Assembly (NCBI GenBank): GCA_004022145.1 | Contig: RCNU01000002.1 | Length of the DNA stretch: 64,000 bases | Direction: 5' to 3' (one strand) | From: Paecilomyces variotii | Taxonomy: Eukaryota | Shown: positions 1-34,211 of the stretch, one piece after another | Layout of the letters: every line of letters starts with the position of its first letter | Numbering within the stretch: position 1 is the first letter of the stretch | Program-made: the position numbers and the translations under genes | The notes under the pieces: model-generated | The model's input: the letters and a program-made list of their open reading frames with translations, nothing else | Told to the model about the DNA's origin: nothing | The model's database searches: none

Positions 1-1603
1 CATGTAACAACGGGCAAAAAGTAGGTACTCCAGTTTCCTGTTTACATGTCAGTAAAGTGTCACTCAGACTAGCAGCCCAGCCACAGCACGATATACTCAC
101 CATTTGCTCCACTGTAGTTCATCATCAGTGTCCAACCAGCGATAAGAAGTCCATAGGCAACTACGCCCAAGTGACTGACTGTAAGGATCTGTCTATCCGA
201 AGCGTTCGGCTTGAAGTATGTCTTGAAGAAGTCTAACGAGACGATACTACTGACTGCAATCATGGACGAAGAGACCGTACTGGTAACGGCCATGAAAGCA
301 AGTACTAAGAAAGCCCTTGTAGCACCGTCGCCAAGTAATGACTTTAAGACGTACGGTAAGACAAGCCCATTCGCGACGTCGGTTTCGCTGAGGATATTGG
401 GATAGGATACGAATACTGGAGTGTGCTCGATTGCCCGACAAGCCAGCCCAACCACCGTGCCAATAGTCCATGGTACAGCGATGATCGCAATGGAAGCAAG
501 GTTGTAACCCGGTACCGTCGCAGAGACTTCGGACGCGAAGCTCTTCTGCCAGAACGCAGTATCCTGAACCAGGAAGGTCAGCCAGAATCATGGTGATACC
601 CGGGAAGATTGGTGCCGCACCATAACTACCAACGCAAGATTTCCGATTCGCAAAACAACACCCCAGATAATTGCGTTATGGGACTTGAAGCTCAGAAGTG
701 AGCCCTTGTAGTTCCCATCAATGTGGACATCGAGTGCTTTCACTTTGTCGTAAAGACCTCCGATGCCCCCAATATGCTCGTTTGTGAGAATCGATAACGT
801 GAAAAAGATCAAGAGGACGAGAGCAATGGTCGTGTGGCAAAAGTCCGTCAAGAACGTAGCTTTCAGACCACCTACAGCGGTGTACAGCATGACTTGTTGG
901 AGGTCAGCGAAGGAGATCAAGCTATGCGAATACTTGCCGACTTACCTCCCAACGGGATCAGGAATGCTGCGGCTACAGGATGCATGCCCCTATTCCCAGA
1001 CACAGTCAGTATCGAGAATTTCGGGAGTGCCAGCTCTGAAAGATACTTACGTTATTCCCTGGAAGAGTAGCATACCCGTCAAAATCATAGATGAGCATCC
1101 GAAGAAATTATTTATCAGGTTGAGAACAATAAAAACCCCATGGCCCATGTTTCCGTAACGTTTCCGTATGAACTCCATTGATGTATGGGCATACGGCACC
1201 CTCAGCTTGGCGATAATACCCATAAAGGCCATTAGGGCAATCTGGCAGCTGAGCGCGCTTGCATACCATACGGGAGCTGCAATCCCCCACCAATAGGCAT
1301 ATGTACAAGCATACACAGTCTCATCGATCCACATCCAACTTGAGAACACGGCAGACGCTGTCAGACCTATACCAACTGATCGGTTGGCAACCATGAACCT
1401 AGAATAACCCCAAACGTCAGATTACACGTCTAGACAGTACGTCCTGGATTCCATACGAACATTTCTGAACGGTTTGTCTCCTCCTCCAAGTAGCGTCTCT
1501 GGATGCGTACTGCGGCGAGAATAATGAGGGCAAAGGCAATGGCAAGCCCGATAAGGAGGCCGTAGCCAGTCCCCTGGTTGAGGAGAATGTCGGTTGCAGC
1601 CAT
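1..1603 (-). CDS. Sodium:solute symporter family urea/polyamine transporter (DUR3-like), multi-exon, 3' end runs off the window
   Basis: ATG at 1603 (MAATDILLNQGTGYGLLIGL...). Exons give MVANRSVGIGLTASAVFSSWMW, YTAVGGLKATFLTDF and FMAVTSTVSSSMIAVSSI, typical of fungal DUR3/UreA-like SSS permeases. GT-AG introns; reading frame still open at position 1. Confidence 0.88.
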
Positions 1604-1845
1604 GGCAGATACCGAGATTCAATTTTGCCTTGTCTTCGCATATGGCAGGTAATCAACGACTTCGAGGAACAGGCGAATTTCTATATCTACATAATGTTTT
1701 GCCTGTGGAGACAATGCTCATGACGCGACGTCGGTGAAGAATCTCCTCATCAGTTGGAAAGCTTTTACATCTCCGCTATTATCAGGCTTCGACCAAGCAG
1801 AAGATATAATGACTCGTCAAATCTAAACTCGCAAGCCATGTGGAA

Positions 1846-2460
1846 ATGTCATAATGTGCCGAGGACAACGTGGGTTCACCTCGACATTACCCACTAGACT
1901 GACTTTGTGGGCTTAGAGCGTATGAGTGCTCACTGCTGCTAACATAATGCTGGCGAAGAAACTAATGAGATTTGTGCACTGCGTAAATATAGAGCATACA
2001 GTAAAAATGCGAAACTACCAGGATGCCTGAGCGTTATAGTGAAAGAACCCATTAAAATTGCGCAATCTGCTTATTATCCCTCAACGGATGTTACTTCCAC
2101 ACCCAATTGAAATTGAAATTCTGGTAACTGCAGAGCACAGAACACATAAATCAGTCTCTATCATTGTGAAAATTGACCTGCGTAGCATTTTTTTGATTGC
2201 ATATGTACTGATACCATCAAGGTGCCTATCGCGTCTTTCCCGATCATGCGTATACTGGAACAAACTTACGCGGAGAACAGATTAAAACATATCAACTGCG
2301 AATTTCAAAAATGCCCCACCAGACGGGCTGTAGGAGATGGCCCCGGTTAAATGACTAGTTCAGGCGTGGGACATATATTTCGTCGTCATCTACGGAGTAC
2401 TCCGCTATGGCATAATAATCTGGCGGTTGAAGGGGATTACCATGTCACGCATGGCGCAAT
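1846..2460. promoter_or_regulatory. Four CYS3/MetR-like bZIP palindromic sites in the DUR3-like/TauD divergent promoter
   Basis: ATGTCATAAT 1846-1855, ATTGCGCAAT 2057-2066 (perfect palindrome), ATGGCATAAT 2407-2416, ATGGCGCAAT 2451-2460. These resemble the CYS3 consensus ATGRYRYCAT. Confidence 0.5.
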
Positions 2461-2598
2461 ATTAATATCTCTCGGTCCGACAAGGTAGCTTAAGCTAGGC
2501 AGACTTGAGGGGTCAGTTCATAAAGATAGCCTTCCTCAGGGATTCTATCTGCACTGTGTGATGATTCTGCGTATCTAATAACATGTTTTCCCGGCGCA

Positions 2599-3947
2599 AT
2601 GCCTGCTCCCGTTGAATCGTCAAACATTAGAGGCGGCCATGAACTAGCACGCCCTCGCCTCTCCAGAAACCTTGAGTATTCTGGTTCGCTAGACTCATAT
2701 TCATATTCAGACTTGACTCCTGTTATCGGTCGAGAATACCAAAGCCTGCAGATTACGGACATATTGGAATCCAAGGACAGCGATCGTTTAATCCGCGATC
2801 TTGCCGTGACCAGTACATGCCTTCTGTTGCGTGGAAGATTTTATAGATGATGAAACGCATGCTAACGGTAGAATTGCTGAAGTTTCCGAAAGAGGAGTTA
2901 TCTTTCTGCGAAATCAGGATGCCTCAACTGAGCAGATGCGTGCATTCATAGAGAAATTGACCTCCTTGGCTGGCTGTGTAAGTACAAGTCCCTTGAGTTT
3001 CGAAGTAATCGGGGCTCATAAACAAGTCCTTGCGGCACATTATTGCTGGGATTGAGCATCAGCTAACGCGTTCACCAAAAGCCCGAATCATCAGGTCTAC
3101 ATATCCACCCTTTAACGGAAGAAGGGAGTGAACTCGGCGATCAAATCAGCGTCATCAGCAGTACAAAACAGAAGAAAGGCGGAGGTCTCACGCACCAACT
3201 CAGTGATACTAGCCGCCTGGCTTCTGTCGGATGGCATTCCGATATCACTTTCGAACCAGTTCCGTCAGATTATGCCACGCTTAAGATTCACACCCTTCCT
3301 GAGACCGGGGGTGACACACTGTGGGCATCTGGTTATGAGATCTACGACCGATTGTCGCCAGAGATGGCTGCTTTCTTAGAGAAATTGACCGCAACACATG
3401 ATGCTAAGTTCTTCCATGATGAGGCGGCTAGGCTGGGAAATCCATTGAGAACAGGTATCCGAGGATCGCCATTGAACCAAGGTGATGAATTAACGGCCGT
3501 ACATCCTGTGATTAGGACAAATCGTACGTTTCATCTCGTCCACTGTCTTTGTCAGAGAGCTAATCTTTGCGATCGCAATAGCGGTCACGGGTTGGAAATC
3601 TGTATTTGTCAACAGAGGCTTCACTCGCCGAATTAATGGAGTAACGAGAGACGAGTCAGATATGCTGCTACATTATCTGTTTAATGTAGGTCTAAATAAT
3701 GAACTTGTCTCTCATAGAATAGGACTAACAGAAAGTCTAGTTGGTTACACAAAACCATGATGCTCAGGTTCGCTTCAAGTGGAGTACGGACGATGTCGCT
3801 ATTTGGGATAATCGCTCAACATGGCACACAGCCACATATGACTATGAAGATGCGCGGGCGGGAGACCGTGTCTGTAGTCTGGGCGAAGCTCCTTATTTGG
3901 ATCTCCGCTCGAAGTCCAGAAGACAAGCTTTAGCAGAAAGAGATTAA
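2599..3947 (+). CDS. TauD/TfdA family Fe(II)/2-oxoglutarate sulfonate (taurine) dioxygenase, 5 exons
   Basis: Spliced product has DLTPVIGRE, SERGVIFLRNQ, GWHSDITFEPVPSDY (HxD), GGDTLWASGY, HPVIRTNPVTGWK and WDNRSTWHTAT (distal His). Confidence 0.92.
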
Positions 3948-4114
3948 GAATATGTATAGATATCTCTTATCTACATGTATCGGCAAACGCATAGATGCTG
4001 TGCGAATACGTCTTACATTTAGTCATTAGCTTAGACACTAATCAGATATTGCCTCATGCTATTGGATATTGGGGATAATACAGAATAATACCAAGATAAA
4101 ACCAGAATAGTTCT

Positions 4115-5083
4115 TTAACTGCCTTCTCTTTCAATTTCTCTTAGGATGGAGTTAAATACCTGACCTTCCCCCTGACTACCATCCACCTCCCTCCATATAC
4201 CCTTTCTCTTATAATAGTCAGGAATAAGTGTCATTCGCTCGCGATATATGTTCAGACGATCCCTCGTATTCTTGACTGTGTCATCTGGACGATGTACAAG
4301 AGGCTCTCCCGTGATATCATCTTTCATGTACTCTTTGGGAGGGTGAAAGATCGTATGATATAAACGGCCCGATGCAAGATGGGTCAGACGCCCTGTTATT
4401 CGTGACTCTAGCAAACCAGTATCAGAAACTCCGAGTTCAATTGCATGATGAAGTCGCTGGTTCTGGGATTCTAGCATTTGATCTAGAAGCCTGGCCTCGG
4501 TGAGGTTGCGTGGAAAATCATCAAGAACAAACCTGGGATGTGTTATTATTCCTCCATATCGGCGTGGTACTGTTTGCGGAAGGAGCGGAGATATACCCAT
4601 TTTTGCATTCCTTATTATTGTTAATTTCGTCGCGGATAAGATCGATCATAGTCTCGTCTGTAACTAAACTACTATGTCCCATTACATCTCTTGCAGACTT
4701 GACTCCTGGAGTTCCTCTAGAGATCTGAGACCGTAAAACTTGTCCAATGGGCTGTAGGATGGCATTAGATTAGCCCTCCAGCTCACGCACTGTTTACATA
4801 TCCACTTACAAGGTGACATATGCAAAACTTGTTCTTAAGCTTTGTCGCCTGAGTTGACTTCCCTTTGTGGTAATATTCATGTTAGAAAATAGTCTCACTG
4901 ATGGAAATAATACAACCGACCTGATCCTGGAGGGCCCACTAGGGCAATACGTATATGCTTATCGATAGGACCATTTTTAGGACCGGTGTCTCCAACAGAA
5001 ATCTTGCTTTCTAGAGTCGAAGCGCGCTGTTCGAGGTCTGAAAGGGTGCTCTGGATGGAGCTGATATCATCACTTCTCCCCAT
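4115..5083 (-). CDS. Adenylate kinase-like protein (long LID type), divergent, 4 exons
   Basis: Hand-spliced: GPPGSGKSTQ (P-loop), HLPIGQVLR, LVTDE, NGFVLDDFPRN, RITGRLTHLASGRLYH (LID), DDITGEPLVHRPDD, RDRL. Frame intact across three GT-AG introns. Confidence 0.88.
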
Positions 5084-6226
5084 TGATTCTGGTCAAGGGC
5101 AACCCAGACTAAGGTCTGACTTCTCCAGCACGTAGATTCGGCAATGGAATTTTATGGCTCAAAGAAATAATAGTGAAAAGAAACCCAGACCGGCAGTTTA
5201 TACCAACGTGAGGGCGACGGAGTAACTGCGCAAAGCTACACATTTCTTGAAGAAGACGAGCAAGTTAGAAATGTAGCGTCTCCCCGGAAAGAAAATGATA
5301 CGTCATGATAATGCCCCTCTGCTGAAATCTTCGTAATATGGACCTGGATTTGGCGCGTCACTGGCTTTCTCTGCCAGCTGTAATATGGTAACTTCGCGGA
5401 TCGCCCGGGCCAAATTACCAGGAAGTAATATTTGGGACCTACTTTATAGATACATGTCAACGCAAAGCTGCTTTCTGCATCGGATGAGCGGCAGATATTA
5501 TTCTATTTGAAATCTCGCTTCGTTCCCTCCTTCGATCAGTTGCATATATATTTCTCGATGTGTCAATAAACGCTGTAAAGCACGGAGCCGCTTTTACCCA
5601 TCGCAGATTCACTGTGATCACCTGAGCATCTACCACCGTCAAGCCAGAGAGTAGATAGATATATGGAAATAATAAAGATCTATTTTTAGGATTATCTCGT
5701 GGCTGGATCTCTCAGAATTGCCTAACTCGCGTTGATGGTCTCACTGCGATTGGTAGCGTCCCCTGTGGCGTTCAACTAAGCTTCGAATACACCTGAATCC
5801 GGATCGGCTGGATTAGGGACTAGTATCATATGTTAATATTCTAGAAGCTCTTAGGAATGTTGTCTTCGCTTAGAGTGTTATTGTCAGGCAATTCACTGAC
5901 TTGCGGCGCCGCCTGATTCGCCGGATAGCCCGGATAAGTATGGTATGGCGGTTAGCATCGTGTGATGATCTTTGCGCATTCCAGGTATGATCGGTATGAT
6001 CTCAACCGCAAGCAACGTGCAAGTTACACATCAGATGACGTTACCGCTACTCTCATTCCGCTTTTAGTAAATTCCGACCATGCCACCCGCATGCTGTGGC
6101 TGAAATAAATATCGAATACTAGTCTTGTATACCATTATCCTGCTCATTTCTCATCTCCAAAGAATATTATCAACAGTCACTCTACCTCCTGCCACACTGA
6201 ATTCTACCGTGAAGGTTGAGCTGAAA

Positions 6227-6611
6227 ATGCCGGTATGTTAGCTACTACCTTTGTGATAGGCGACAGAAGATAACGATCATTGCAGAAAGTAACCGTCTAC
6301 CCAAAGGAGAACGTCCAGGACACAGTTCTGGAGAAAGTAAAACAGTAGGTCAAGCCGCACATTTTTCACCACGGACAGCATCTAATTAGGCCAACAGAAT
6401 TCTCGAAGGGTCAGATAAAGTTCATGCGATTATAACTGCATCTCGTCCGCCAGTGTACTTATCGTATGTTCATAAGTTGATCTCTTCGAACTTCTCACGC
6501 GTAGTGATGCATGACTGATGTTTATTTAGTGGCCGTGATATCAGTCAGAGCGAGGTCGACGAATTAAAATCCCTCCCTGGAATAGAACTGGTGCTCCATG
6601 TTGAGAAGTGA
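6227..6611 (+). CDS. Small 70-aa protein, 4 exons, possible ferredoxin-like/peptidase inhibitor I9-like fold (not in ORF track)
   Basis: Exons 6227-6232, 6286-6344, 6398-6463, 6530-6611. Donors GTATGT/GTAGGT/GTATGT, acceptors CAG/CAG/TAG, branch-like TAAC/CTAAT/CTGAT. Translation: MPKVTVYPKENVQDTVLEKVKQILEGSDKVHAIITASRPPVYLSGRDISQSEVDELKSLPGIELVLHVEK*. Confidence 0.75.
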
Positions 6612-6975
6612 TCATACCGCACTTACAGGTGTTAGTATGGAATATCGGCTCTGCTTATCATTTCAGACTATGGCTAAAGTGCGTTTCATACAACGTGAGA
6701 TTTCTTATGTGTTATTAGTACATACCCGGGGAGCGATGTAATAGAGACAACTTTTGTACGGCTAGTTCTGCGGCCACCTCATCGATAGATGTATATAATA
6801 TACTATTTAGAAATTTCCGGATTATGATGACATGGCATCTGCAAGACGAATGAAATATTCGCTATTACAGACTGAAGAATGTCGTATTCGAAAAGTTCGC
6901 CAACGCAGTCTTCATTCCTCTTGCAGAGCCATCACTCGATCAATGAAGTTCAACCGAGGTAGTTTGTCGTCCAAA

Positions 6976-8487
6976 TTATCTAGCATGGTATGGCAGTCCA
7001 AGTGAGCTATAGTCTACTGTCACGAAACTTCTATCAACCTCCGCTAGCCCTATCTTTCAGATTAGCTGCGGCTAGTGCATGCAAGAGCTTTGTGTACAAA
7101 CCTTCAAAACAGTATTGTATGGTCTGGGCAATATCATGGGCTAGAGGCAGAGGTGTCCTTTCATCTAGTGTGATCTCAACCTCGACAATGATACCATCAC
7201 CAAGATAATAGGCTGTCATCGATTTATACGAATCGACAACAGGAGAGAAACGCCACGCCAGGTATATCAGTTTCTTTGCAGTTTGGGTAGATACCGCGGC
7301 ACCAGTCAGTCTGTTGATTGTTGTGACTGACGTGTGGGCCCAATCATAAATGACATACAGCGATAGCAGTGCGGCCCCAAGAGGATCGAGATACCAGATA
7401 TCGAGCTTGTGGCCGATAAAAGGGAATAACAACGATGATAGGTTGAAATAAACATCCGTCTTGCAATCTTTTAAGAGTTATTATATGGGCTAGTAGTGGA
7501 AGATGTATACCGACCTTGAACTAGAGCTTGGACCTGTGAGTTCTTGACTCTAAAGTAATACAACCCAACGAGTCCTTTAACGACAATATTTCCTGCCATC
7601 GCGCCGATAGCAACAGGTGGCAAAGTGAGAGTATGGTGATCACCAGAAGGGAGTAATTTTGCAGCAGACTCCCGCAGGATCTGCACAAAGGAGACCACCA
7701 TAAGGATCGAAAAGATCAATATACCGAGAGGGCGTAGACGTTGGCGGCCCGCGGGAAATGCCAGTTTCACCGATGCAGTCTGCCAACTAGCTAGCTTGCT
7801 TGTTGACCAAATAATCAGTGTACATAGAAGATCCAATGCCGAGTCTAGAAGCGAAGCAATCAAGGACAGCGAGTGTGTCGATGTCACGGCGACCACCTTT
7901 GCTACCAGCAACAGGACATTTGCCAGTACATTTATCTAGAGTCCAGGTCAACCTAAAGAAGAGCAATTGCATTCAGTTTAACTTACATTCAGTGCTCTCT
8001 GGGCTGTGCGATTGTCTCTGATGCGCTTTTCGCGCTCTTTCCAGGGCAAGAAAGCCTCTAGATCGTAGCCAGTGTGAACAAGTGGCGTGTTTCTATCCAC
8101 AATTCCGTCGCGATTGGCATCTGGATCCATGCTATCGACCACATCGTCTACTAAATCCCAGACAAGGCTATCAACTTCAGCCCAATCATTCAGTTTTTGA
8201 TTTTGTGCTTCATAGAATTCCCGAACGCGTTTGTTTTTAATTGATTTGAGCTCCTCGTCACTCTTCCGATAGTGCTCGACATTGAAGTTCTGTACTCCCG
8301 CAAGAATCTTATTCTTGAGTTCTGTGCGTCTTTTCTCTGCTTCAGTGGCCGCTGTATCATCTCTGAGATGTGACGAGTTTCCAAAGTATTCCCGTCTCAT
8401 CGGATTCGTGGTGCTACTCCGTCTTGCATCCTGGCCATCGGTCGTTCCAGGGCTCGTCCCTAGCATACTCCACTGTCGCGCGACCAT
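6976..8487 (-). CDS. Cation diffusion facilitator, Mn-CDF (plant MTP8-11-like) type, 4 exons
   Basis: N-terminal KNKRVREFYEAQNQKL. TM2 DSALD and TM5 DCKTD (DxxxD/DxxxD). LDPLGAALLS; C-terminal AHDIAQTIQYCFEGLAEVDRSFVTVDY; TAA ends at 6976. Confidence 0.88.
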
Positions 8488-9006
8488 TTTGGTGAGAAAT
8501 TCCAGTACAAAAACTGTCAAGCTTCTTTTCAAGGCTTATGCGTTTCATTTATATGTCACAGTGACTCAGCAAGTTCCTATCCTTATGTTTAATTAGAGTT
8601 CCCACAATGCCTAGACCAACCAGGATAGGATGTATCTCGCTTGTGCCTTGCAGTAGTTGCACGGTGGTTATGATCTAATTACCTGTCCAAACAGTCCTTG
8701 GCATCCAGCGGCTATCCCGGATATACCGGGGTTTCCCCGTACATATGTATGTATGTACATACGTTACGTCTAAGAAGTGAAGGGAGAAACAACGCAAGAC
8801 AACGTGAATATTTAGCCAGTTCCCTGTTTTCATCTGTGCCGCCAACATGATGTCACATTCATACTTACGATCGACGGAGATGAGCGAATCAATAAGAGTC
8901 GTATTCGTCGTTGCTGAAGCATGGCAGTTATAGTCCTTCTGATCAAGAAGTGGAATGGTACATCACCGGGCCAAAGCCAATTCTGAGCGAAAGATAAGCC
9001 AGCAAG

Positions 9007-9030
9007 GGACCATATTGGACCATATTGGAC
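9007..9030 (+). repeat. Short tandem duplication (GGACCATATT)x2 + GGAC in the CDF/phosphatase divergent promoter
   Basis: Read directly: ggaccatattggaccatattggac. Confidence 0.8.
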
Positions 9031-9127
9031 ATTTCACGAGGCGAAGGTTCGGTCTCCCTGGGTTTGTGTAGCCCGGCATCTCCCCGCCATTTTGTGACAT
9101 TTCTTCGTTACCTACGCAGACTTATAC

Positions 9128-10473
9128 ATGTCGCAGAACCCCGTTTCAGCCCTTCGGGGACATCTCGCTGCAATATCTCCATATAGTAACATTTTCAAAC
9201 AACCTCCCCCTCCATCGTCTGGTCAAGTCTATGGGGCAGTCTACCTTTGTCGTCATGGAAGCATCGAGGTATCCTATCATGACTACGCCCACTTCATGGC
9301 GCCATTCCTACAGAAGCTCCGCTCGCTCCAAAGTTCTGGTCGTCCATTTGTGACAGGAAGACTGTCCTTCCTATCCTCATATCAGAGTTGGATTACCGAC
9401 GCACATGTGGGAAATGTCTCTAACGAAGGGCTCAAACAGAGTTTAGACTTAGGTAGAGCATTTCGTGTCCGGTACAAGCAATGGCTAATACCCGCTTCTC
9501 ATTATTCTAAACCTGAATTATATACTTGGACTGATTCGGCCATGCGCTGTCGGAGTTCTGCATTGGCATTTTCCAGCGGTATCCTAGGTACGTCTAAATC
9601 GCCATATTGGTCCCGTTTACATTGTCATACTGAAGGAAAATAGGGAAGAAAGGCAGTCCTACTGGCAATTATGACGACCATCCTCGTCGTGTTGATGTTA
9701 GGGTCAAGGTGTTGCAATGTGAGGACAATTCTCACCAGTGCGATAATCTTCGATGGCATAAAGCTTTCTCTGTCGACCAATCCAGAGGCTCCGACAAATT
9801 TGAGAAGCTGATGCAAGTCACAACACGCCCGATCTACAGACGACTGCATAATGATTGGCATACAGCGACTCCCTTGTCAGCGACGGATATATACGCAATG
9901 CAATTGCTCCATTGTTACGATGCGGTAGCAAACAGGCCGACGCCGTTTGAAAAATGCTTTGAGGCAGATGACTGGCCAGGATTCGAATATCTGAGAGATG
10001 TAAAATATTATTACAGTGAAGGCTACGGCATGCTACAGCCAGGCTTTTACGCAATACCCTGGCTTAAAGCTGCTATGACTGCCTTAAGCAATCCTCCTAG
10101 TCATGGTCCCCAGTTACCTCTGCGGATTGCATTTACGCATCGTGAAGAGATTTTGTATCTCTGCTGTTTGCTCGGTATGAATTTCCATAAGAACTGGGAA
10201 CCCGCCTTGGACAGGGTTGATGAAGATCGACAATGGCGAGCTGCGTTGCTTGCACCGTACCTAGGTCACGTTGGTATAGAATCTTATCCTGGAAGGAATG
10301 GCGAAAAGCGCGTACGGTTCATTCTTAATGGCGATGTTAAGCCGGCTTTTTGGGGAATAACACACCCGGATAGTGATGGGGGATATGGCTTTGATCTAGT
10401 GAGTCAATGGACGGAGGTACAGTGGCGAGCATGGCAAACCTTTAGCCCTTCTCGAATTACATTCCTCAGATAG
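9128..10473 (+). CDS. Histidine acid phosphatase/phytase-like (His_Phos_2), 2 exons, no signal peptide
   Basis: LCRHGS motif, GLKQSLDLGRAFRVRY, DSAMRCRSSA, FEYLRDVKYYYSEGYG, AFTHREE. Intron 9588-9643 joins the two ORFs in frame. Confidence 0.82.
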
Positions 10474-11319
10474 GATTTTATATCTATTAAGAGAATACAA
10501 GATACCAGTATGAACTAAAATCAACGGTGTCTATATACACGAGGAGCGAGATTTTGATGATAAGAGGCTTCAGCATCGCTCTTTAGGCAAGCACCTAGAC
10601 CTTTACCGGACTATAGCCTTGCGTTCCTTGGACCCTAAGAGAGCTACAAATGAAATGATTCCGTGCCGTGTCCGACCCAGCCAAAAAGACCCCAGCTAGT
10701 TTGGCTAGCCTCGTGATATTTCCCAGCGACTACTCATGTTCAAATTCTTTCCTAGGCCAGAATAATTTGGACTGAACCGGCTAGAATACCTGTTTACGTC
10801 CATAGTTCACATTTAATATCCAATTCGCGCCGGGTAAAGCGGTTGGCGCGGTCCCAATGGAGTCGCTTGTAACCGTCCCGCATACTTATATGAATCAAAA
10901 GGGATGGGCTCTCTAAGAGATATATGATTGTATGATGTTCTTGCGAAAGCAGAACTCCTCAAGCAACATTATACCATCACATCATAACGGATTATAGAAG
11001 ACGAAGGACCGAATGCTACAATTATATAATATGCAGTGATGTCAGGAGACAGCTTAACTACTCCGTCTTTCCCGGGCTTCCCGTTGCTTGTCATAGTAGA
11101 TGAAATATTCAAACGGGATTATCGCCTGTTTTATCACAGGCTCGTAGATGCATGATCCTGTTTTCTACACCAAAGTGACGTAAAAGTAAGGAAAGGATGT
11201 ATTCTTTTGGCTACTGAGTCTCTCATAAATATGCTGCGAAACCCAACGTTTCGTCCCCGAAAATCTCACCAACTTCTAAATCTAGTTTGATGGTATTTTC
11301 ATGTCTATTGGTCTACAAA

Positions 11320-12186
11320 ATGGCTTCCAGAATCTTTGTGATACGCCATGGTGAAACTGAATGGTCCAAGGAAGAGCGCCATACGGGATCTACCGACATT
11401 CCCTTGACGGAAAGCGGCGAGCAGGAAGTCAAAGCTACTGCGAATGCCTGGGTAGGCCAAGGCAAGTTAATTCAGCCAAAGAATATTTGTCGGGTGTGAG
11501 TATACATACATTTTAAACGTATCTCGGAGGCTGACTACGCTATAGCTACTGCTCGCCTCGTGCGCGAGCTCGTCAAACGCTAGACCTCTTAGGCTTGGGC
11601 ATTGATTCTGGGTCTATCTCTTCCGTGACGCCGCATCCGACCCTCTGCGTCACTGAGAACTTGCGGGAATGGGGATACGGCGATTATGAGGGCCTCACTA
11701 TAGCAGAAGTCCGGAAGTTGAGAAACTCAAGGGGCCTCGATAAGGACCGACCATGGAACATTTGGAGAGATGGATGTGAAGGTGGAGTGTAAGGGCTTCA
11801 CTTGTAGAAACAGATCCGGTTTATTCAATAGACTAACCAATAATCCCCTCAAAGATCACCAGAAGCTGTCTCTCATCGACTAGATGAGCTGATCAAGGAC
11901 ATGAAGCGATTCACTAAGGGACCACAAGGAAGAGAGAGAGCCCCCGATATTGTTTGCATCGCCCATGGCCACATTCTGTCTGCCCTAGCGCTGAGGTGGG
12001 CTGAACAACCATTGTCGCATGGAATGAGGTTTTTAATTCAAACGGCTGGAGTTGGAATCCTTTGGTAGGTTGCTTGCTTCTCTTGTAATGATCGTTGCTA
12101 ATTATAAAAGCTTTGAACATGATGACCTGAATGAGCCTGCTGTTCTCCTTGGAGCTTCAGGACGGCACTGGACATCTCGTGGCTAG
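11320..12186 (+). CDS. Phosphoglycerate-mutase-superfamily phosphatase, sedoheptulose-1,7-bisphosphatase (SHB17)-like, 4 exons
   Basis: IRHGETEWS, TGSTDIPLT, SPRARARQT, LREWGYGDYEG, RGLDKDRPWNIWRDGCEGG, AHGHIL and FEHDDLNEPA closely match the yeast Shb17 pattern. TAG at 12184-12186. Confidence 0.88.
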
Positions 12187-12897
12187 ATATGGCAACTGTG
12201 TCTTCTCATAGGTATCTTGAGTATCCAGTTTACTCGTGATAAGTCTAGGTAGCCATTGTGGAGATGTATTTGTTTTATATGTCGACGCCAATGACTATAG
12301 GCTAGGAAATAATGAATGTGTGGAATCTCCTGTCCTTCATAGATTGTTATCTATACCATGATATACAACTTTTTCCCAGTTTTAACACTTCACAATATAT
12401 CCCCTGTTCCATGGTCAAATAATTGGGATATAATAATCAGCTTCCACGAATATTTGACCAGGACATTTATCTCACGCCGACTTCATTGACTCTGTCATAT
12501 GGAGGCATAATTGGCGTATTTGACTACCTGACGCGTTCTTTTAATGTTTATGATCTCAATGAGAGCGGGAAACTCGTCGGTTAATAGTGTGCACCTTTCT
12601 ACAAAAACAGAATTGAGTCGAGTGACCTCGTATTGTTTAGGTGGTCGACCAATTATGAATAAACCAAACGCCATATTCGTATGGCGATGCAGCAGATTAT
12701 TTATTCTACCCATTATTTTCCACGTCCAACACTGAAAATGATTTCAACTTTCACATACTCGTGAGCTAAAGGTCATATGCTTGTAGGTAGCTACTGGGGC
12801 CATTAAGCTTGTCCATACCCAAATTAGAAGAATAAGTTAAGGTACGAAGTTCGAGCGAAGAAATAGCGGTGAGTAGATAGAAGTCGTATTTCCATCG

Positions 12898-13786
12898 TTA
12901 TTGACTACCAGCCTTCTTCTCCATTGATTTCCATGTGCCGTGAAAGTGGCTTATGAGTTCAAGAGCGGATCTAAGATATTGTCAGATAACATCCGAAAAG
13001 AAACTGGGAAGTTTAGTGGTAGTAACCTTCGATCTTGAAGCTGCCCACATAGAGCTACTTCGTTTGGAGGCTTTCCCTCAGGGATCTTATACAAGCAATA
13101 CCAGTCTTTGAGCTTTCCCAAGAACTCTGGTAGATGAACCTCTACGTCCGATATATCGGTAAGCTTGCTTGAGAGGGAATCGTTGATATCAACGGCAATT
13201 ATCTTCCAGTCTGTTTGCCCTTGGTCCAAGATGGCTATAGCTCCAAGGACCTTCACCGTCTTGACTTCACCGGGGTAAGCGGGTTCGTTCCCAATCTCAC
13301 AGACATCCAGAGGGTCGTCATCTCCTTGTACACCGGTTTTACCGTCGAGTATGTCGGGACTTTCGTAAGTCTAGATTGAGGATTAGCAGTTAGGAACATA
13401 TCCGACCTTTTCCAAGTCACGTTTTACCTGGGGAAATGCTCCATAGTTGCAGGGATATCCTTTGAAGGGCGGTATATCTGCAAGGTATCTTAGACCACCG
13501 TGGTTGGTATCTTGTTTGATGGGGTTGTAGTCTTCCTCTTTGGAAATCTAGAGATTTCGTAAGCTAACAACATCGTGACACTATTTTCAGAGAACGCGCC
13601 AACCTCCAGCTTCGCATTTGTTCCTTTGGGAATTTCAACGACCATATTTAATAGGCCATTTGCTTCATTGGCGTACAGAGGAATATCATGCCATGGTGAT
13701 ATGCGACGGCCCTTCTCCTCAAAGAAGATACGAGAACCAGTGGGTTCTTGTTCCCCAACCACCTTAATATCATACCTATTATGCAT
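12898..13786 (-). CDS. Soluble inorganic pyrophosphatase, family I (Ipp1-like), 4 exons
   Basis: ISPWHDIPL, VVEIPKGTNAKLEIS, NPIKQD, NYGAFPQTYE, GDDDPLDVCEIG, VKVLG, LDQGQTDWK, YKIPEGKPPN. First ATG at 13786 (13813 is a TTG); TAA ends at 12898. Confidence 0.92.
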
Positions 13787-15089
13787 AGTCACATGCGTCA
13801 GAGTGAATGACAAATGGTTGAGGTGTTTTTTTCTTCAGCTTCTATGAGGATTGTCAACGGTGTGGTTCGAGGGGAAGTCCCTTTACTTATACAAGATAGC
13901 GGGTGCAGCTCAAGGCTATGACGCAGTAATTGTCTGGCGCCTTCTTGGAACAGACAAATTAGTGGTTTTTTTTTTTTCTACGTCTTCCGACATAGGAGTC
14001 CGTTCCCGGGATCACGTATATACTGATACAGCGGAATTACGTCTGTCTTTGAGAAGAAGTTTTGCTTCCTATATTCGATATTTCTTTGTAGCAACGCACA
14101 TAATCTCTAAACATAATGCAAAACGCAAATACTTCATGCCTACTTGAAGCCGATAATCACTCGTCCTTTTAGACATATCTCCTTGGTCATGTTTTCGGTT
14201 GATATGTGGCTCCCGCCGTATCTCGAAACGGCAGCAGAAGGATGATACCTACGCTACGGAAATCATCTATTGCGGTGGCTGAGTGAGTTTACAGCACCGG
14301 AACCTGTTCAATATAGAGATGAAGAGAGAATGGATCGCCATGATCTTCAGGAGCGTCATCCTCGAATGCTTCGCGTCGGTAGAAGCGTAGTACCGTCCGT
14401 TCCGCTCGATCCGGCTCTTCCAGACAATGTCTCACAATCGTCGATTCGAGAATCGAGATATTAGTCTTTGCTTTGGCTAACTATCTCTACGTATCGAAAA
14501 GCCAGATCAATAATGAGGTCATGGCGTTCTATTTCCATCTTCATGGCTAGGTGCCATTTGACCTGGCATACAGCGTGGATGGTAGTACATAGTTATTAAC
14601 CGAGCTGTAACCTGAGTTGGCTCTTGCCTCGCACGAGGCTAAGAGTGCTCGAGCTAGAGGACTATATCGCAAATTTAAGAGGTTCTCGTGTAACATAAAA
14701 CCCTACAGTAGTACAGCAACGAATTAGCTTAGGGCTCTAAACGCCTAGGATAGACTTCAACTCGTATAGTCCTTAGATTAATGCAATCACTGACAAGCTA
14801 GTATACTGGACTTGTACTTCGTGCTCATTGGATGCATGCTGTGTTCAAATCACTTCCGAGCCAGAGTAGTACCGTCTCAAAGGCATACGCCGCCTTAAGC
14901 GTTCAGCCTGCGCCGTGTTTCGCATGGGGCATGCCAGTGAAAAGATTAGCCACAAGTCGAAGATCTCATCACATTTTTTGGGGGGTGACAGAATCGTGAA
15001 AGCGACATAGATGTAGTGGATAGTGATAGAGAGAGCTGGGTTTGCCGCACATGCCACTTTCATGATGAGTCCGAAGAAAAAAACCCCAT

Positions 15090-15914
15090 TTAAACCCTCA
15101 ATATATCCTTAGAATTTTTCACTTCCTCGACACCAGCATTCGACCTCGGAACGGGTCTTTTTATTGACGATATTTCATTGAACGAACTCGTTACCTCATT
15201 TAACTGTGCCTCTCTAAACATGCTGGTGAATGTACCTCTTGGCGTGTGGATCTCTCCAACCACTTTGAATCCAAATTTTGCGTATAAATGAACACCTGCT
15301 GGAGAAGATATCAAAAAAGAATCTCGCCCATGTGCATCTGCCTCTTCAGTTCCCCATTGTAGTAGGATGGAGCCAATACCTTGGCGCTGATATGCCGGGT
15401 TTACTGATATCATATTGAGACCTGCAAGAGATACTTAGAATCGATGCACACGAACTTCGTCATGATGAAACTTACGCCAGATATTCTTGCGATTTTCAAG
15501 GACCCTTTTCTTTTCGTCCCTAAACATTCTCGAGACGCCCACCCAGGTCTTCACATCCAACGTGCTCGGGTGCCAGTAATCGCGTCTTGGGCATTTATTT
15601 GGCTCTTCCCGCTCTTCTGAGACAGCTCCGATATTGGTGGTTTTTCCTTCGTGTGTAGTCTGTTCCAGGCTCCATCCGGCAAATCCAGCAGGTGTGCCGT
15701 CCTCTAAGCAGACCTTACGGAATCCTGCCGATCGCGTTTGGAGTGTCTTTTCTAAGCCCTCAATAGTCCACTTTATCTCTTCCTCCTCCATTTCTTCACA
15801 TGAGTGAGGAAACATTAGAAGATGTAACGGGTTGTCTCGCATTGCTGGAAAATCGCATTTTCGTACTAGGGATTCAGCATCATCAGCATTAACAGGAGAG
15901 AGTGTAAACTTCAT
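15090..15914 (-). CDS. GNAT family N-acetyltransferase, 2 exons
   Basis: Acetyl-CoA motif A VNPAYQRQGIGSILL and motif B SSPAGVHLYAKFGF; AGFAGWS strand; intron at about 15422-15476. Confidence 0.85.
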
Positions 15915-16243
15915 GGTGGCTAAGGATTAAAGATGAATCTCTCAAGAGATGATAACCGCGTGGGTATTGAAAGAAGTTGATCAGTGGGCTGGGTCGAGCA
16001 AGTTATCAGCATAGGTGACTTAGAAACAAGCTTAGGAGATGACAAAAATTCACAAATGGTGACTTGATAACCTTTACTAATTGAGGAAGTAAAGTAATAT
16101 TCCAAGGTTTGCCTTTATTGTTTTCAAATTAATAAGTTCCAAGTCCTTAAGCTGTGCTGAAGACACGTCCCGGTCTTGCTTAACTGTAGCACTGATATTT
16201 AAACCGTGGATAACTTAAGTAGCCGCACCGTCCGCCGTACTCA

Positions 16244-16258
16244 ACGCGTCCGACGCGT
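16244..16258. promoter_or_regulatory. Two MluI cell-cycle boxes (MCB, ACGCGT) upstream of MSH6
   Basis: ACGCGT at 16244-16249 and 16253-16258, about 200 bp before the ATG of an S-phase DNA repair gene. Confidence 0.7.
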
Positions 16259-16460
16259 GAACTCCGTCACGTCCCCTGGCAGAATAACTTACTTAGCTGA
16301 GCATGTCTACATCCAACTCCTTACGATGGGCTTTTCTCTCATATCTCTGTCTGGGGATTATAGTATCTATCCAACAAGTGTATACCGGTATCTCTGCTAA
16401 AGGCTTCTTTGCCCCTCCAATCTTCTAGTCCTGTACCATACTTAATCGTTTGCATCCGCA

Positions 16461-19400: not shown

Positions 19401-20251
19401 GTGGGAGATTTTATCCCTAACGACGTCAAGCTCGGTGGAGAGACGTCAAATATCAACCTTCTCACCGGTGCCAACGCGGCTGGAAAGTCGACGGTTCTCA
19501 GAATGGTATGTCATCCCCGAATATCAAAGCCACACTTGTGATACTAATCCAATCTCAGACCTGCGTTGCTGTTATTATGGCACAGATTGGCTGCCATATA
19601 CCTTGTCGATCAGCCCGTCTGACGCCAGTTGATCGGATCATGTCGCGTCTTGGTGCAAACGACAACATCTTCGCGGCACAGTCCACCTTCTTTGTCGAGC
19701 TGTCAGAGACGAAGAAGATTTTGTCCGAGGCCACCCCCAGGTCTCTCGTTATCCTGGATGAATTGGGTCGTGGTACCAGCTCTTATGACGGTGTTGCAGT
19801 TGCGCAAGCTGTTCTACATCATATTGCGACTCACATTGGAGCTCTTGGCTTTTTCGCAACCCACTACCACTCCCTCGCTGCCGAATTTGAAGGTCATCCA
19901 GAAATCAGACCACGCCGCATGCGTATCCATGTTGATGAGGAGGAGAAGCGTGTCACCTTCCTCTACAAGCTGGAGGATGGTGTCGCTGAAGGAAGTTTTG
20001 GTATGCACTGCGCCTCCATGTGCGGTATCCCCAAGAAGGTTATCGACACAGCCGAAATGGCTGCCAAGCAGTGGGAGCATACTAGTCGCTTGACTGAAAG
20101 TCTCGAGCGCCGCAAAGGCGGCGGTCTTATTGGACTTGGATGGTGGAGTGATGTCGCCTGGGCTCTCCGCGAGTCCAAGGATGAAGAGACGTCCAATGGC
20201 ATCACTGAGAGAGGACTCGAGGTCCTCCGGAAGGCCATTGAAGCTCTCTGA
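16461..20251 (+). CDS. MSH6: DNA mismatch repair protein MutS homolog 6, 4 exons
   Basis: N-terminal PIP box QRSILGFF, FFKKGKFYELYE mismatch-binding motif, Walker A TGANAAGKST, STFFVEL, ILDELGRGTS, FATHY. Confidence 0.96.
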
Positions 20252-31915: not shown

Positions 31916-32157
31916 CTTATCCAAATGATCCCGCGGGATCAAATGCTTATTATATATTTGACCGCATGTTGCAGCACACTAGATAAGATACGTAAGGTCC
32001 AGGCGAGAAGTGGCTCGGAGACTCCCTAAGAACTGTTGTACTCGCGACCTTGAGTTGAGGAGGACATAAGATAGCTAAAGAGGATTCGATAAGAATGATA
32101 CTAAACATGGTTGGTCCGATAATCTCCCCTTATCCTGGCGTCCCATAAACGTCGATA
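31916..32157. promoter_or_regulatory. Cluster of GATA sites (AreA-type) upstream of the HOL1-like MFS gene
   Basis: About nine GATA/TATC cores in ~240 bp, including GATAA at 31982, 32088 and 32118 and TTATC at 31917 and 32130. Confidence 0.55.
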
Positions 32158-32496
32158 TAGATTACAAGACTGATCCTCAAAGGTACAGAGTATACGAGTT
32201 GTAATTATCTATTCAAGCTATAGCCATTCAACTAAGTCTTGTAAGTAGACGTCTCGTGGAGATCAATAACTGAGGGAAGGTCAAGCCGGATTTAGCGTCA
32301 ACGCCAGTGGTTTAGCATCATCCGTCAACAGACTATGGACGTATGCATTCTAGAAAGAGGCGACTGCACAAGATACAGCTGAGATACCAGAGTCATCGAT
32401 CGAGTAGAGTCGGCGTGTTAGATCATTTAGCTGCTTGATTTGTGTGACAGGATCATTTTTGCTCGCGCAAAATGTTGATCACGCCTCTCAATCTTA

Positions 32497-33453: not shown

Positions 33454-34211
33454 GATGGCTGCTGCTTATGGATTGTCCAGGTATGTGAATCAGTATCGAG
33501 ATCTTTGTTTGTGAAACCAGAACTTATGCTTAAATACCGGTTCCCTTCAACGGATCACAGTTGCGTAACACTACTGGGCAGATCCCTCAGTACCAATGAG
33601 TTATCTATGACACGAATACATTAGCTGTAGAACATTTCATTTTATAATCATAAAAGGATTTCATTTCAGCCGGCAACTCAATAGTTGTATACGGCGACAT
33701 ATTCTGCGAAGGGAAGACATTGTACCTTCATGACATATATTTCCACATGCTGATGAAGTTGATAGTCAATTTGAACAGAGCCATTACAGAGAACATTTAA
33801 CCTCTTTAGCGAGTTATCTTTGCAATACCATAACAAAGGTCAGAAAGTCTATTTGTAGTCGTGCCTATTGTATAAAGATCATCCACATGTAATGCTCCGT
33901 TGGTGTATTTGCGGCACAAAGTACACTTTCCCGAGTTAGTTCGGCGAAAACTCTACAGCAGCCTCAATATGTTGCTGAGGTTTCCATAGACGTTGTACTG
34001 TACATAAACCATTACGGACAAGAGAACTTCATTTTTAATAAGATATCTGTCAAATCCTAAATTGCACGGGAGGATGGATAGATCGAACCACCTAGCCTAT
34101 ACATACATCTAGGTTGCTTGCTTGATTCTAGGTCTAGGGGAATTTGATCCCTTATTTATCTCCTATGACATACAAAGTTTCTTCTGTCCTTCTGTCAGTC
34201 TGTACTGCTCA

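What the first reader, a model, noticed from the sequence alone, without database searches (positions are those of the whole stretch)
4115..13786. Candidate undescribed gene cluster: divergent phosphate-handling enzymes plus a Mn-type CDF and a microprotein
Seen: six consecutive genes with intact spliced frames, namely adenylate kinase-like, a 70-aa protein, Mn-CDF, histidine acid phosphatase, SHB17-like phosphatase and family I pyrophosphatase. They are arranged as two divergent pairs plus a convergent pair. Established: ADK1, IPP1 and SHB17 orthologs are highly conserved and not normally neighbours in fungal genomes, and four of the six genes transfer or release phosphate. Inference: these copies are much more divergent than core orthologs should be, so they look like second-copy paralogs assembled into a functional module. 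Possible roles: (i) mobilising Pi/PPi/adenylate energy in dormant or stressed spores, (ii) generating Mn-phosphate complexes as non-enzymatic antioxidants or for Mn sequestration, (iii) tolerating a phosphate analogue or phosphatase inhibitor such as arsenate, vanadate or fluoride. I do not recognise this combination as a characterised cluster.
Basis: partly seen in the sequence, partly recalled or inferred. Interest (0 to 1): 0.82.

Follow-up and report, generated by a model that had tools for sequence, protein, structure and literature searches.

The report
Divergent phosphate-enzyme gene island in Paecilomyces
A common food-spoilage mould carries six neighbouring, transcribed genes, two of which are unusually fast-evolved versions of housekeeping enzymes that handle ATP and pyrophosphate, but nothing yet shows that the six work together.

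Summary
Window 4115-13786 of Paecilomyces variotii carries six intact, spliced genes in the stated orientations. They are an ADK1-type kinase, a 70-aa protein, a Mn-type (DxxxD/DxxxD) CDF, a branch-2 histidine phosphatase, an SHB17-like branch-1 histidine phosphatase and a family I pyrophosphatase. RNA contigs of one run confirm the introns of four genes and one PPase intron.

The kinase and the PPase are extreme outliers. The kinase is 45-51% identical to every core adenylate kinase from bee to ascomycete, and three AMP-base contact positions are replaced. It still shows about 8 synonymous to 3 non-synonymous differences between strains. The PPase keeps all aligned catalytic residues but lacks the C-terminal tail.

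The kinase is present in every named P. variotii strain record. No RIP signature, flanking repeat or mobile-element mark was found.

The "functional module" reading is not shown. 0 of 80 environmental loci with a CDF relative carry any other member, and there is no shared promoter word. Core ADK1/IPP1/SHB17 copies could not be sought because no genome is held.

Verdict: a real, lineage-restricted island of diverged phosphoryl-transfer genes. Joint function is plausible but unproven.

The parts
4115..5083 (-). ADK1-type nucleoside-monophosphate kinase, 262 aa, 4 exons (5083-4921, 4862-4810, 4751-4597, 4532-4115). P-loop, LID arginines and Arg36/Arg88 equivalents are kept. The AMP-base contacts (E. 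coli Thr31, Gly85, Gln92) read Ile, Asp, Glu.
   Evidence: Model. Identical to P0032. Pfam ADK and ADK_lid. TIGR01351 182 bits against cut-off 168. All 3 introns in RNA contigs. Residue changes, with residue roles from passages of PMC3369945.
6227..6611 (+). Gene for a 70-aa protein that starts Met-Pro, 4 exons (6227-6232, 6286-6344, 6398-6463, 6530-6611). Its 3' end overlaps the 3' end of the CDF transcript. Family unknown.
   Evidence: The three GT..AG joints are in an X3 contig of depth about 3014. ORF derived. It could not be searched because it is a spliced protein.
6976..8487 (-). Cation diffusion facilitator, 453 aa, 4 exons (8487-7987, 7935-7515, 7467-7102, 7049-6976). DxxxD in both metal-site helices (DSALD, DCKTD). 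Long cytosolic N-terminus.
   Evidence: Model. Pfam Cation_efflux. All 3 introns in RNA contigs. Relatives at 53-68% identity. D31 and D35 invariant in 16 of 16 sequences.
9047..9136 (+). Intron in the 5' leader of the His_Phos_2 transcript that removes the predicted start codon (9128).
   Evidence: Joint 9044->9135 (cut +2), GT..AG, in an X3 contig. Reading upstream in frame from the sequence gives a stop at 8984-8986 and no ATG.
9128..10473 (+). Branch-2 histidine phosphatase without a signal-peptide-like start, 429 aa, 2 exons (9128-9587, 9644-10473). It has RHGSIEV in place of RHGxRxP and HREE in place of HD.
   Evidence: Model. Pfam His_Phos_2. Full-length relatives P0057 and P0064 are colinear from the start. 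HREE is invariant in 17 of 17 sequences and RHGx[IL]EVS is present in 3 of 3 that cover the N-terminus. The nearest solved structure is A. niger pH 2.5 acid phosphatase, E 1e-10.
11320..12186 (+). SHB17-like branch-1 histidine phosphatase, 234 aa, 4 exons (11320-11495, 11546-11788, 11855-12064, 12111-12186). RHGETEW and AHGH are present.
   Evidence: Model. Pfam His_Phos_1 on 3 exons. All 3 introns in RNA contigs. The best PDB hit of exons 1 and 2 is yeast YKR043C. Exon 3 does not reach it at E 0.1.
12898..13786 (-). Family I inorganic pyrophosphatase, 239 aa, 4 exons (13786-13604, 13547-13428, 13370-13027, 12970-12898). All aligned catalytic positions are kept. It is short at the C-terminus.
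   Evidence: Model. Pfam Pyrophosphatase. 97% identical over exon 3 to the 239-aa P0040. Alignment to yeast PPase. Intron 1 supported by loose ends. Relatives.

Best explanation
This is a real island of six transcribed genes, so far seen only in the Paecilomyces variotii complex. Two of the genes are fast-evolved but selectively maintained descendants of housekeeping phosphoryl-transfer enzymes.

Shown:
- The genes are intact and spliced as modelled, and the kinase is present in all named strain records.
- The kinase derives from an ADK1/AK2-type enzyme. It keeps the phosphoryl-transfer machinery but has replaced the three residues that read the adenine of AMP.
- The pyrophosphatase keeps the full aligned catalytic set but has lost the C-terminal tail.
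- The branch-2 histidine phosphatase belongs to a conserved subfamily with a rewired motif pair (RHGx[IL]EVS, HREE).

Inferred:
- The kinase and the PPase are extra copies beside canonical ADK1 and IPP1, and have taken on changed substrates or properties.
- My most likely mechanism, held at low confidence, is that the four enzymes form an auxiliary nucleotide and phosphate turnover set. The SHB17-type phosphatase would push carbon towards ribose-5-phosphate. The kinase would rephosphorylate a monophosphate other than AMP. The PPase would pull PPi-releasing steps. The cytosolic histidine phosphatase would remove a terminal phosphate.
- The Mn-type CDF and the abundantly transcribed 70-aa protein are passengers or accessories of unknown role.
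For: Intact models and families.

Splicing and transcription of all six genes in one RNA assembly.

Species-wide presence. The 90% cluster of the kinase holds 14 sequences; the 11 named ones are all P. variotii strains and 3 are unnamed fragments. The PPase cluster has 10 members and the His_Phos_2 cluster 22.

Divergence of the kinase:
- The next full-length hit after P. variotii is 53% identical.
- It is 45-51% identical to six core ADKs that are 55-86% identical to one another.
- 17 of 84 columns invariant in those six are changed.
- Its stem branch is 1.75 changes per column, against a median end branch of 0.13.

Constraint. There are 8 synonymous and 3 non-synonymous differences to the strain in run X15, giving pN/pS about 0.11.

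Remodelled AMP pocket. T, G and Q of the core enzymes read I, D and E. The roles of Thr31, Gly85 and Gln92 come from passages of PMC3369945.

PPase. Alignment to yeast PPase over residues 5-232 keeps every catalytic position that I checked.

Theme and background. Four of the six products transfer or release phosphate. [quoted passage not shown]
Against: - The canonical ADK1, IPP1 and SHB17 genes of P. variotii were never found or sought here, so 'extra copy' is an inference.
- There is no conservation of the arrangement. 0 of 80 metagenome loci with a CDF relative carry any other member at E 1e-5 (best weak hit E 0.17). Only 23 of these loci have at least 3 kb upstream, 28 at least 4 kb downstream and 16 both.
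- The related PPases come from Penicillium pulvis, Rasamsonia emersonii and P. alfredii. None of these species appears among the ADK or His_Phos_2 hits. Those searches are word-limited and length-limited.
- No 8-10-mer is shared by the four upstream regions beyond shuffles.
- Contig depths range from about 7-19 (PPase) to about 3014 (70-aa gene), which gives no sign of tight co-regulation. Depth is a poor measure.
- The X3 transcript of the His_Phos_2 gene lacks the start codon.
- The SHB17-like gene and the CDF may simply be the ordinary orthologues.
- The proposed pathway lacks any committed enzyme, such as a phosphoribosyltransferase.
Confidence: 0.4

Rival explanations
1. The block is an accessory gene nursery without a joint function. 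It would be a stretch of lower-GC3, lineage-specific, fast-evolving genes that lie together because of how they arrived or because the region tolerates novelty. On this reading the phosphate theme is partly coincidence, and partly a broad category chosen after the fact.
For: - GC3 of the six genes is 0.40-0.49. The neighbouring TauD and GNAT pieces have 0.46 and 0.36, and eight larger genes further along the window have 0.53-0.60.
- The arrangement is not conserved.
- There is no shared promoter word.
- Contig depths are very unequal.
- The CDF, the His_Phos_2 protein and the SHB17-like protein each belong to ordinary fungal families.
Against: - Four of six products act on phosphate esters or anhydrides.
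- The two most aberrant genes sit 8 kb apart.
- The kinase is under purifying selection.
- The kinase is present in all named strain records.
Confidence: 0.33
2. The block was acquired whole by horizontal transfer, for example as the relic of a Starship or other mobile element, from an unsampled fungus in which the genes already formed a unit.
For: - P. variotii is a known host of active Starships (titles and abstracts listed).
- RIP makes in-genome duplication unlikely (passages of PMC6300479).
- The island has lower GC3 than the flanking housekeeping genes.
- Relatives of the PPase are patchy across three Eurotiales families.
Against: - No flanking direct or inverted repeat of note lies in 1-20000.
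- There is no tRNA or 5S hit in the window.
- No recombinase-type Pfam hit appeared among the 63 translated pieces scanned, which were picked from the window's longer ORFs.
- The kinase is present in all named strain records and on large contigs.
- No donor-like sequence above 53-59% identity was found for the kinase or the PPase.
- The kinase's place in the tree is unresolved.
Confidence: 0.17
3. These are the ordinary orthologues, or the usual organellar isozymes (ADK2/AK3-type, PPA2-type), and merely look divergent.
For: - The core copies were not demonstrated here.
- The SHB17-like central exon is about 55% identical to yeast SHB17 by my hand count, which may be normal for an orthologue.
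Against: - The kinase is less similar to ascomycete ADK1 (50-51%) than bee AK2 is (55-57%).
- It matches AK2/ADK1 structures far better than AK3 structures.
- Neither the kinase nor the PPase has an N-terminal presequence-like extension beyond the core enzymes (read by eye).
- No Aspergillus or Penicillium protein above 53% identity appeared for the kinase, although many such proteomes are in the database.
Confidence: 0.06
4. The genes are decaying duplicates, either RIP-mutated or relaxed pseudogenes that happen to keep open frames.
For: - P. variotii has RIP (passages of PMC6300479).
- The His_Phos_2 transcript lacks its ATG in one assembly.
- Related PPases in P. alfredii and one metagenome sequence have lost catalytic aspartates.
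Against: - There is no RIP signature. TpA/ApT is 0.50-0.79 and (CpA+TpG)/(ApC+GpT) is 0.96-1.58 in the six genes, much as in the neighbours.
- All six frames are open and all introns are canonical.
- pN/pS is about 0.11 for the kinase.
- The catalytic positions of the PPase are kept.
Confidence: 0.04

Closest known systems
Yeast ADK1 / animal AK2 (long-LID adenylate kinases; PDB 1AKY, 1AK2)
   Same: - Full-length alignment with E 1e-64.
- P-loop, the LID motif with its arginines, and the Arg36 and Arg88 equivalents are present.
- It passes Pfam ADK and ADK_lid, and TIGR01351.
- The N-terminal extension resembles that of the Sordariomycete ADK1 sequences.
   Different: - About 50% identity to yeast ADK1 by my hand count.
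- 17 of 84 columns invariant from bee to ascomycete are changed, including the P-loop Gly after Lys, Gly85 to Asp and Gln92 to Glu. Thr31 is also replaced, by Ile.
- The TIGR01351 score is 182 bits, just above the cut-off of 168, against 258 for a core ADK1.
Yeast IPP1 (family I soluble pyrophosphatase; PDB 1E6A, 1WGJ)
   Same: - Alignment over residues 5-232 with E 1e-74.
- All catalytic positions that I recalled are identical: Glu48, Lys56, Glu58, Arg78, Tyr89, Tyr93, Asp115, Asp117, Asp120, Asp147, Asp152, Lys154, Tyr192, Lys193.
   Different: - About 49% identity by my hand count.
- 239 aa against 286 aa, with no C-terminal tail.
- Arg51, Trp52 and His87 read Lys, Gly and Lys. I recall these as dimer-interface residues and did not check that here.
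- DEGETDWK reads DQGQTDWK.
Yeast SHB17 (YKR043C, sedoheptulose-1,7-bisphosphatase; PDB 3F3K)
   Same: It is the best solved match of exons 1 and 2 (E 2.8e-9 and 1.5e-22). RHGxTEWS, SPRxRARQT and the LREWxYGDYEG...RPWNIWRDGCE block are shared.
   Different: It is shorter (234 aa; the solved SHB17 chains are 265-292 aa). The C-terminal exon does not reach SHB17 at E 0.1 and instead matches M. tuberculosis Gpm2. Substrate was not tested.
Fungal histidine acid phosphatases and phytases (A. niger pH 2.5 acid phosphatase, PDB 1QFX)
   Same: Pfam His_Phos_2 fold and the catalytic RHG histidine.
   Different: - No signal-peptide-like start, read by eye.
- The second Arg and the Pro of RHGxRxP are replaced (RHGx[IL]EVS).
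- HD is replaced by HREE, invariant in 17 of 17 relatives.
- Only E 1e-10 to the nearest solved structure.
- HREE recalls the HAE of MINPP-type enzymes. That is my recollection and was not tested.
Mn-type cation diffusion facilitators (plant MTP8-11, bacterial MntE group)
   Same: Cation_efflux domain and DxxxD in both metal-site helices. The link between this motif and Mn is recalled from the CDF classification literature.
   Different: It has a fungal-type long N-terminal cytosolic region that is conserved among relatives. Metal specificity and membrane are untested. Relatives in other fungi are not next to any other island gene.
Fungal metabolic or biosynthetic gene clusters that embed a duplicated housekeeping gene
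   Same: Tight spacing, divergent promoter pairs, and diverged copies of primary-metabolism enzymes.
   Different: Among the pieces scanned there is no backbone or committed enzyme, no transcription factor, and no transporter of organic molecules inside the block. No conservation in other taxa was found.

Membership tests
Adenylate kinase (ADK1/AK2 type) | Family profile above the curated threshold | tested here: met
   Pfam ADK 131.8 bits (cut-off 26.8) and ADK_lid 46.9 bits. TIGR01351 182 bits against a cut-off of 168. None of the NCBIfam models of kind 'equivalog' that matched reaches its own cut-off.
Adenylate kinase (ADK1/AK2 type) | AMP-base recognition residues (E. coli Thr31, Gly85, Gln92) | tested here: not met
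   They read Ile, Asp and Glu. T, G and Q are invariant in 5 of 5 (Thr31) and 6 of 6 (Gly85, Gln92) core sequences aligned. Roles are taken from passages of PMC3369945. 'Adenylate' specificity is therefore doubtful, while NMP-kinase chemistry is likely.
Adenylate kinase (ADK1/AK2 type) | ATP:AMP phosphotransferase activity | not testable with these tools
   Needs an enzyme assay.
Family I inorganic pyrophosphatase | Family profile and catalytic Asp/Glu/Lys/Arg/Tyr set | tested here: met
   Pfam PF00719 147.3 bits. All 14 recalled catalytic positions are identical in the alignment to yeast PPase. The list of positions is recalled.
Family I inorganic pyrophosphatase | Eukaryote-type dimer interface and C-terminal extension | tested here: not met
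   The protein ends about 7 residues after the aligned stretch, whereas yeast PPase has about 55 more. Trp52 and His87 are replaced. Their interface role is recalled.
SHB17 sedoheptulose bisphosphatase | Branch-1 histidine phosphatase core (RHG, second His) and closest similarity to SHB17 | tested here: inconclusive
   Exons 1 and 2 are closest to YKR043C. Exon 3 is not. The RHG and AHGH motifs are present. Substrate-pocket residues were not mapped.
Histidine acid phosphatase (branch 2) | RHGxRxP and HD motifs | tested here: not met
   RHG is present, but the motif reads RHGSIEV. HD reads HR(EE), and this is a family-wide feature, 17 of 17. The fold family itself is met, by Pfam His_Phos_2.
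Mn-type CDF | Cation_efflux domain with DxxxD in transmembrane helices II and V | tested here: met
   Pfam hit of 68.3 bits on exon 2. DSALD and DCKTD are in the model. The two Asp of the first motif are invariant in 16 of 16 sequences. The meaning of the motif for Mn is recalled.
Co-functional (metabolic) gene cluster | The same combination linked in other taxa | tested here: not met
   0 of 80 loci with a CDF relative hold another member. Only the CDF could be used as an anchor, and only 16 loci have ample flanks on both sides.
Co-functional (metabolic) gene cluster | Co-regulation | tested here: inconclusive
   All six genes are present in one RNA assembly. There is no shared upstream word. 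Contigs cannot give expression levels, and no multi-condition data were available.
Starship or other mobile-element cargo | Captain recombinase, terminal repeats or target-site duplication, presence/absence among strains | tested here: not met
   No such Pfam hit among the 63 pieces scanned. No flanking repeats. The kinase is present in all named strain records. The window may not reach the ends of a very large element.
RIP-mutated duplicates | High TpA/ApT and low (CpA+TpG)/(ApC+GpT) | tested here: not met
   The indices are 0.50-0.79 and 0.96-1.58 in the six genes, similar to the neighbours.

The most novel reading that the evidence does not exclude
The island would be a private 'shadow set' of phosphoryl-transfer enzymes built around a nucleotide other than AMP. 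The remodelled kinase would phosphorylate a non-adenine, or modified, nucleoside monophosphate. The tail-less PPase and the two histidine phosphatases would drive and reset that cycle. The Mn-type CDF and the very abundant 70-aa protein would tie it to manganese or stress handling. This would give P. variotii a replacement or parallel pathway when the canonical Mg-dependent enzymes are poisoned, for example by fluoride, arsenate or vanadate, by metal excess or by heat.
Probability: 0.1. Interest if true: 0.8.

Novelty: new variant of a known kind. Interest (0 to 1): 0.47.

Why it matters
ADK1 and IPP1 are among the most conserved and usually single-copy enzymes of eukaryotic energy metabolism. 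Here, a selectively maintained ADK1 descendant has all three adenine-reading positions replaced, and it lies next to a tail-less but catalytically complete pyrophosphatase. Together they offer a natural experiment in how core phosphoryl-transfer enzymes acquire new substrates or properties.

This occurs in a RIP-active genome, where duplicates are normally destroyed, so the origin of the copies is itself a question.

If the six genes do act together, they would define a new kind of accessory phosphate/nucleotide module in a food-spoilage mould known for stress tolerance. If they do not, the island is still a clean example of how a thematic-looking neighbourhood can arise without joint function.

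The conserved HREE subfamily of cytosolic histidine phosphatases and the highly transcribed 70-aa protein are also uncharacterised.

Tried and rejected
- Whole genome.
- RIP as the cause of divergence. Rejected on the dinucleotide indices.
- Mitochondrial isozyme reading. Rejected for the kinase, because AK3-type hits are much weaker and the N-terminus is acidic. It is judged unlikely for the PPase because there is no extension.
- Mobile-element marks. There are only short chance-level repeats, no Rfam hit in the window and no recombinase domain among the 63 pieces scanned.
- Synteny by metagenome contigs. Of 80 loci with a CDF relative, 0 hold another island gene and 0 hold any of 12 flank ORFs.
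- Shared promoter words. None above shuffles.
- Tree of the kinase. 23 rows were used: 21 of the 26 hits plus P0032 and P0001. P0005, P0008, P0025 and P0026 were left out. The position within fungi is unresolved and the branch is long. No Eurotiales core ADK1 was available.
- Atlas look-ups. They gave only the generic families.
- TauD neighbour. It matches generic taurine/sulfonate dioxygenases only, with no link to the island.
- Runs X15 and X16 are labelled RNA, but their contigs run unspliced through introns. They show a strain about 2% diverged and say nothing about expression.
- Run X21 gave no laid contig. This is not evidence of silence.
- Literature. No paper held 'Paecilomyces variotii' together with both enzyme names among the 15 rows listed of 382. 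There were 0 papers for three accession numbers of the kinase, and 0 papers with all five terms 'inorganic pyrophosphatase', 'adenylate kinase', 'gene cluster', 'fungal', 'paralog'. Supplements are closed and may hold expression tables for these genes.
- The 70-aa protein could not be searched or folded, because spliced sequences cannot be handed to those tools. A resemblance to small beta-alpha-beta proteins is only my impression.

Full report
**Organism and observation**

The window is from Paecilomyces variotii. My spliced model of the first gene is identical to the database protein P0032, which a source names adenylate kinase of P. variotii / Byssochlamys spectabilis.

Between 4115 and 13786 I could build six intact gene models with canonical GT..AG introns of 46-66 nt:
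- an ADK-like kinase (-, 262 aa)
- a 70-aa protein (+)
- a CDF transporter (-, 453 aa)
- a branch-2 histidine phosphatase (+, 429 aa)
- an SHB17-like branch-1 histidine phosphatase (+, 234 aa)
- a family I pyrophosphatase (-, 239 aa)

In Pfam, 9 of 13 exon translations hit the expected family. Each of the five enzyme or transporter genes has at least one hit. Four short or N-terminal pieces had none. Annotators of other strains also place six consecutive locus tags here.

**Transcription**

Of four runs laid on 3500-15500, one (X3, same organism label) consists of spliced contigs and is therefore RNA.
- It reproduces all three introns of the kinase, of the 70-aa gene, of the CDF and of the SHB17-like gene.
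- Through loose ends it also reproduces intron 1 of the PPase.
- The remaining PPase introns and the internal intron of the branch-2 phosphatase were not among the rows shown.
- Contig depths are about 30 for the kinase and the two phosphatases, 234 for the CDF, 7-19 for the PPase and about 3014 for the 70-aa gene. The tool warns that such depths cannot rank genes.

Two runs labelled metatranscriptomic (X15, X16) carry unspliced contigs of a strain about 2% diverged, so they say nothing about expression. The fourth run gave nothing.

One surprise: the X3 contig of the branch-2 phosphatase removes a further intron, 9047-9136, which contains the predicted ATG. Upstream in frame there is a stop and no ATG. 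That isoform could only start after the catalytic RHG.

**How divergent are the genes?**

*Kinase.*
- After the P. variotii proteins at 99%, the next full-length hit is 53% identical. There were 26 hits among 408 candidates, and only proteins of 243-2000 aa were searched.
- Over 207 ungapped columns it is 45-51% identical to six core adenylate kinases, from three Sordariomycetes, Malassezia, Gonapodya and a bee. These are 55-86% identical to each other.
- 17 of 84 columns invariant in the six are changed.
- In a 23-row tree its stem branch is 1.75 changes per column, against a median end branch of 0.13. Its position within fungi is unresolved.
- It scores 182 bits on TIGR01351 (cut-off 168), against 258 for a core ADK1.
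- It is an ADK1/AK2-type enzyme, not AK3-type. Its N-terminal extension resembles that of the Sordariomycete ADK1 sequences (by eye).
- The P-loop, the LID arginines and the Arg36/Arg88 equivalents are kept.
- The three positions that read the adenine of AMP in E. coli ADK are Thr31, Gly85 and Gln92 (passages of PMC3369945). Here they are Ile, Asp and Glu.
- Against the strain in X15 I counted 8 synonymous and 3 non-synonymous differences (pN/pS about 0.11). This rests on the table, which was cut at 40 rows and covers the gene only up to 4979.

*PPase.*
- It aligns to yeast PPase over residues 5-232 (E 1e-74).
- By my hand count it is about 49% identical.
- Every catalytic position that I recalled is unchanged.
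- It lacks the C-terminal tail, and Trp52 and His87 are replaced.
- Its nearest named relatives outside the species are from Penicillium pulvis (55% over the full alignment), Rasamsonia emersonii (54%) and P. alfredii (44%).
- The P. alfredii protein and one metagenome protein have lost catalytic aspartates.

*Other three genes.*
- The branch-2 phosphatase belongs to a conserved subfamily known almost only from unnamed assemblies. Of 28 hits, 2 are named, both P. variotii. HREE stands in place of HD in 17 of 17 sequences, and RHGx[IL]EVS is present in 3 of 3 that cover the N-terminus.
- The CDF has many fungal relatives at 53-68% (17 hits below 1e-30) and DxxxD in both metal-site helices.
- The first two exons of the SHB17-like protein are closest to yeast SHB17. 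Its third exon is not.
- For these three genes I cannot say that they are unusually divergent.

**Origin**
- There is no RIP signature.
- There are no flanking repeats, no RNA genes and no recombinase domain among the 63 pieces scanned.
- The kinase is present in all 11 named records of its cluster, all P. variotii strains.
- GC3 of the six genes (0.40-0.49), and of the adjoining TauD and GNAT pieces, is lower than in eight larger genes of the window (0.53-0.60).
- The genome paper reports active RIP and no recent duplications (passages of PMC6300479). An in-genome recent duplication is therefore unlikely. An old paralogue or a transfer remains open.

**Is it a module?**
- I could anchor a synteny test only on the CDF. 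A scan of metagenome contigs returned 80 loci with a relative. None holds any other island gene (best weak hit E 0.17) or any of 12 flank ORFs.
- Only 23 of these loci have at least 3 kb upstream, 28 at least 4 kb downstream and 16 both.
- The species with related PPases do not appear in the kinase or phosphatase searches. Those searches are limited by shared words and by length.
- The four upstream regions share no 8-10-mer beyond shuffles.
- The phosphate theme and the adjacency of the two aberrant genes therefore remain the only arguments for joint function.

**Conclusion**

The claim of divergence is well supported for the kinase and the PPase. The claim of second copies is likely but untested here. 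The functional module is plausible but unproven, and its wider conservation is not supported.

My best reading (0.4) is a lineage-restricted island in which at least the kinase, and probably the PPase, have taken on changed properties, possibly serving nucleotide and phosphate turnover. The main rival (0.33) is an accessory-gene neighbourhood without joint function.

I found no description of this combination in print. Supplements were closed.

Noticed in passing
window 9047-9136: The RNA contig of the branch-2 histidine phosphatase splices out the predicted start codon. Homologues in other fungi keep the same N-terminus with the catalytic RHG. This could reflect two isoforms, two promoters or a regulatory leader.
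   Followed up: partly
window 6227-6611: The gene for the 70-aa protein lies on an RNA contig of depth about 3014, roughly 100 times its neighbours. Its 3' end overlaps the 3' end of the convergent CDF transcript, and one contig merges the two. Its family is unknown.
   Followed up: partly
window 3738-3948 and 4752-4809: Against the strain in run X15, the last TauD exon shows 16 listed differences in about 210 bases and intron 2 of the kinase shows 10 in 58 bases. This is far above the roughly 2% average of that contig.
   Followed up: no
runs X15, X16 on window 3500-15500: Contigs from libraries labelled metatranscriptomic RNA-Seq run unspliced through all introns of the island, so they look like DNA or unprocessed RNA.
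   Followed up: no
P0044 and P0045 (relatives of the PPase): The P. alfredii protein reads GDGG, and one metagenome protein reads GTNT, where the catalytic Asp-x-Asp lies. Some members of this loose group of divergent fungal PPases may therefore be inactive. The P. pulvis model lacks the exon with the EIP..NAKLE motif, which is probably an annotation gap.
   Followed up: partly
window 32000-36000: A second lower-GC stretch (0.44-0.45) contains a 322-aa ORF (32500-33465, -) without a Pfam hit.
   Followed up: no
window 49332-51986 (-): An 885-aa open frame without any Pfam hit, in a GC-richer part of the window.
   Followed up: no
alignment A1 (CDF relatives): Many predicted relatives from metagenomes read through into the intron after the conserved QALxQ. 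The intron position of the CDF therefore seems to be shared widely among fungi.
   Followed up: no
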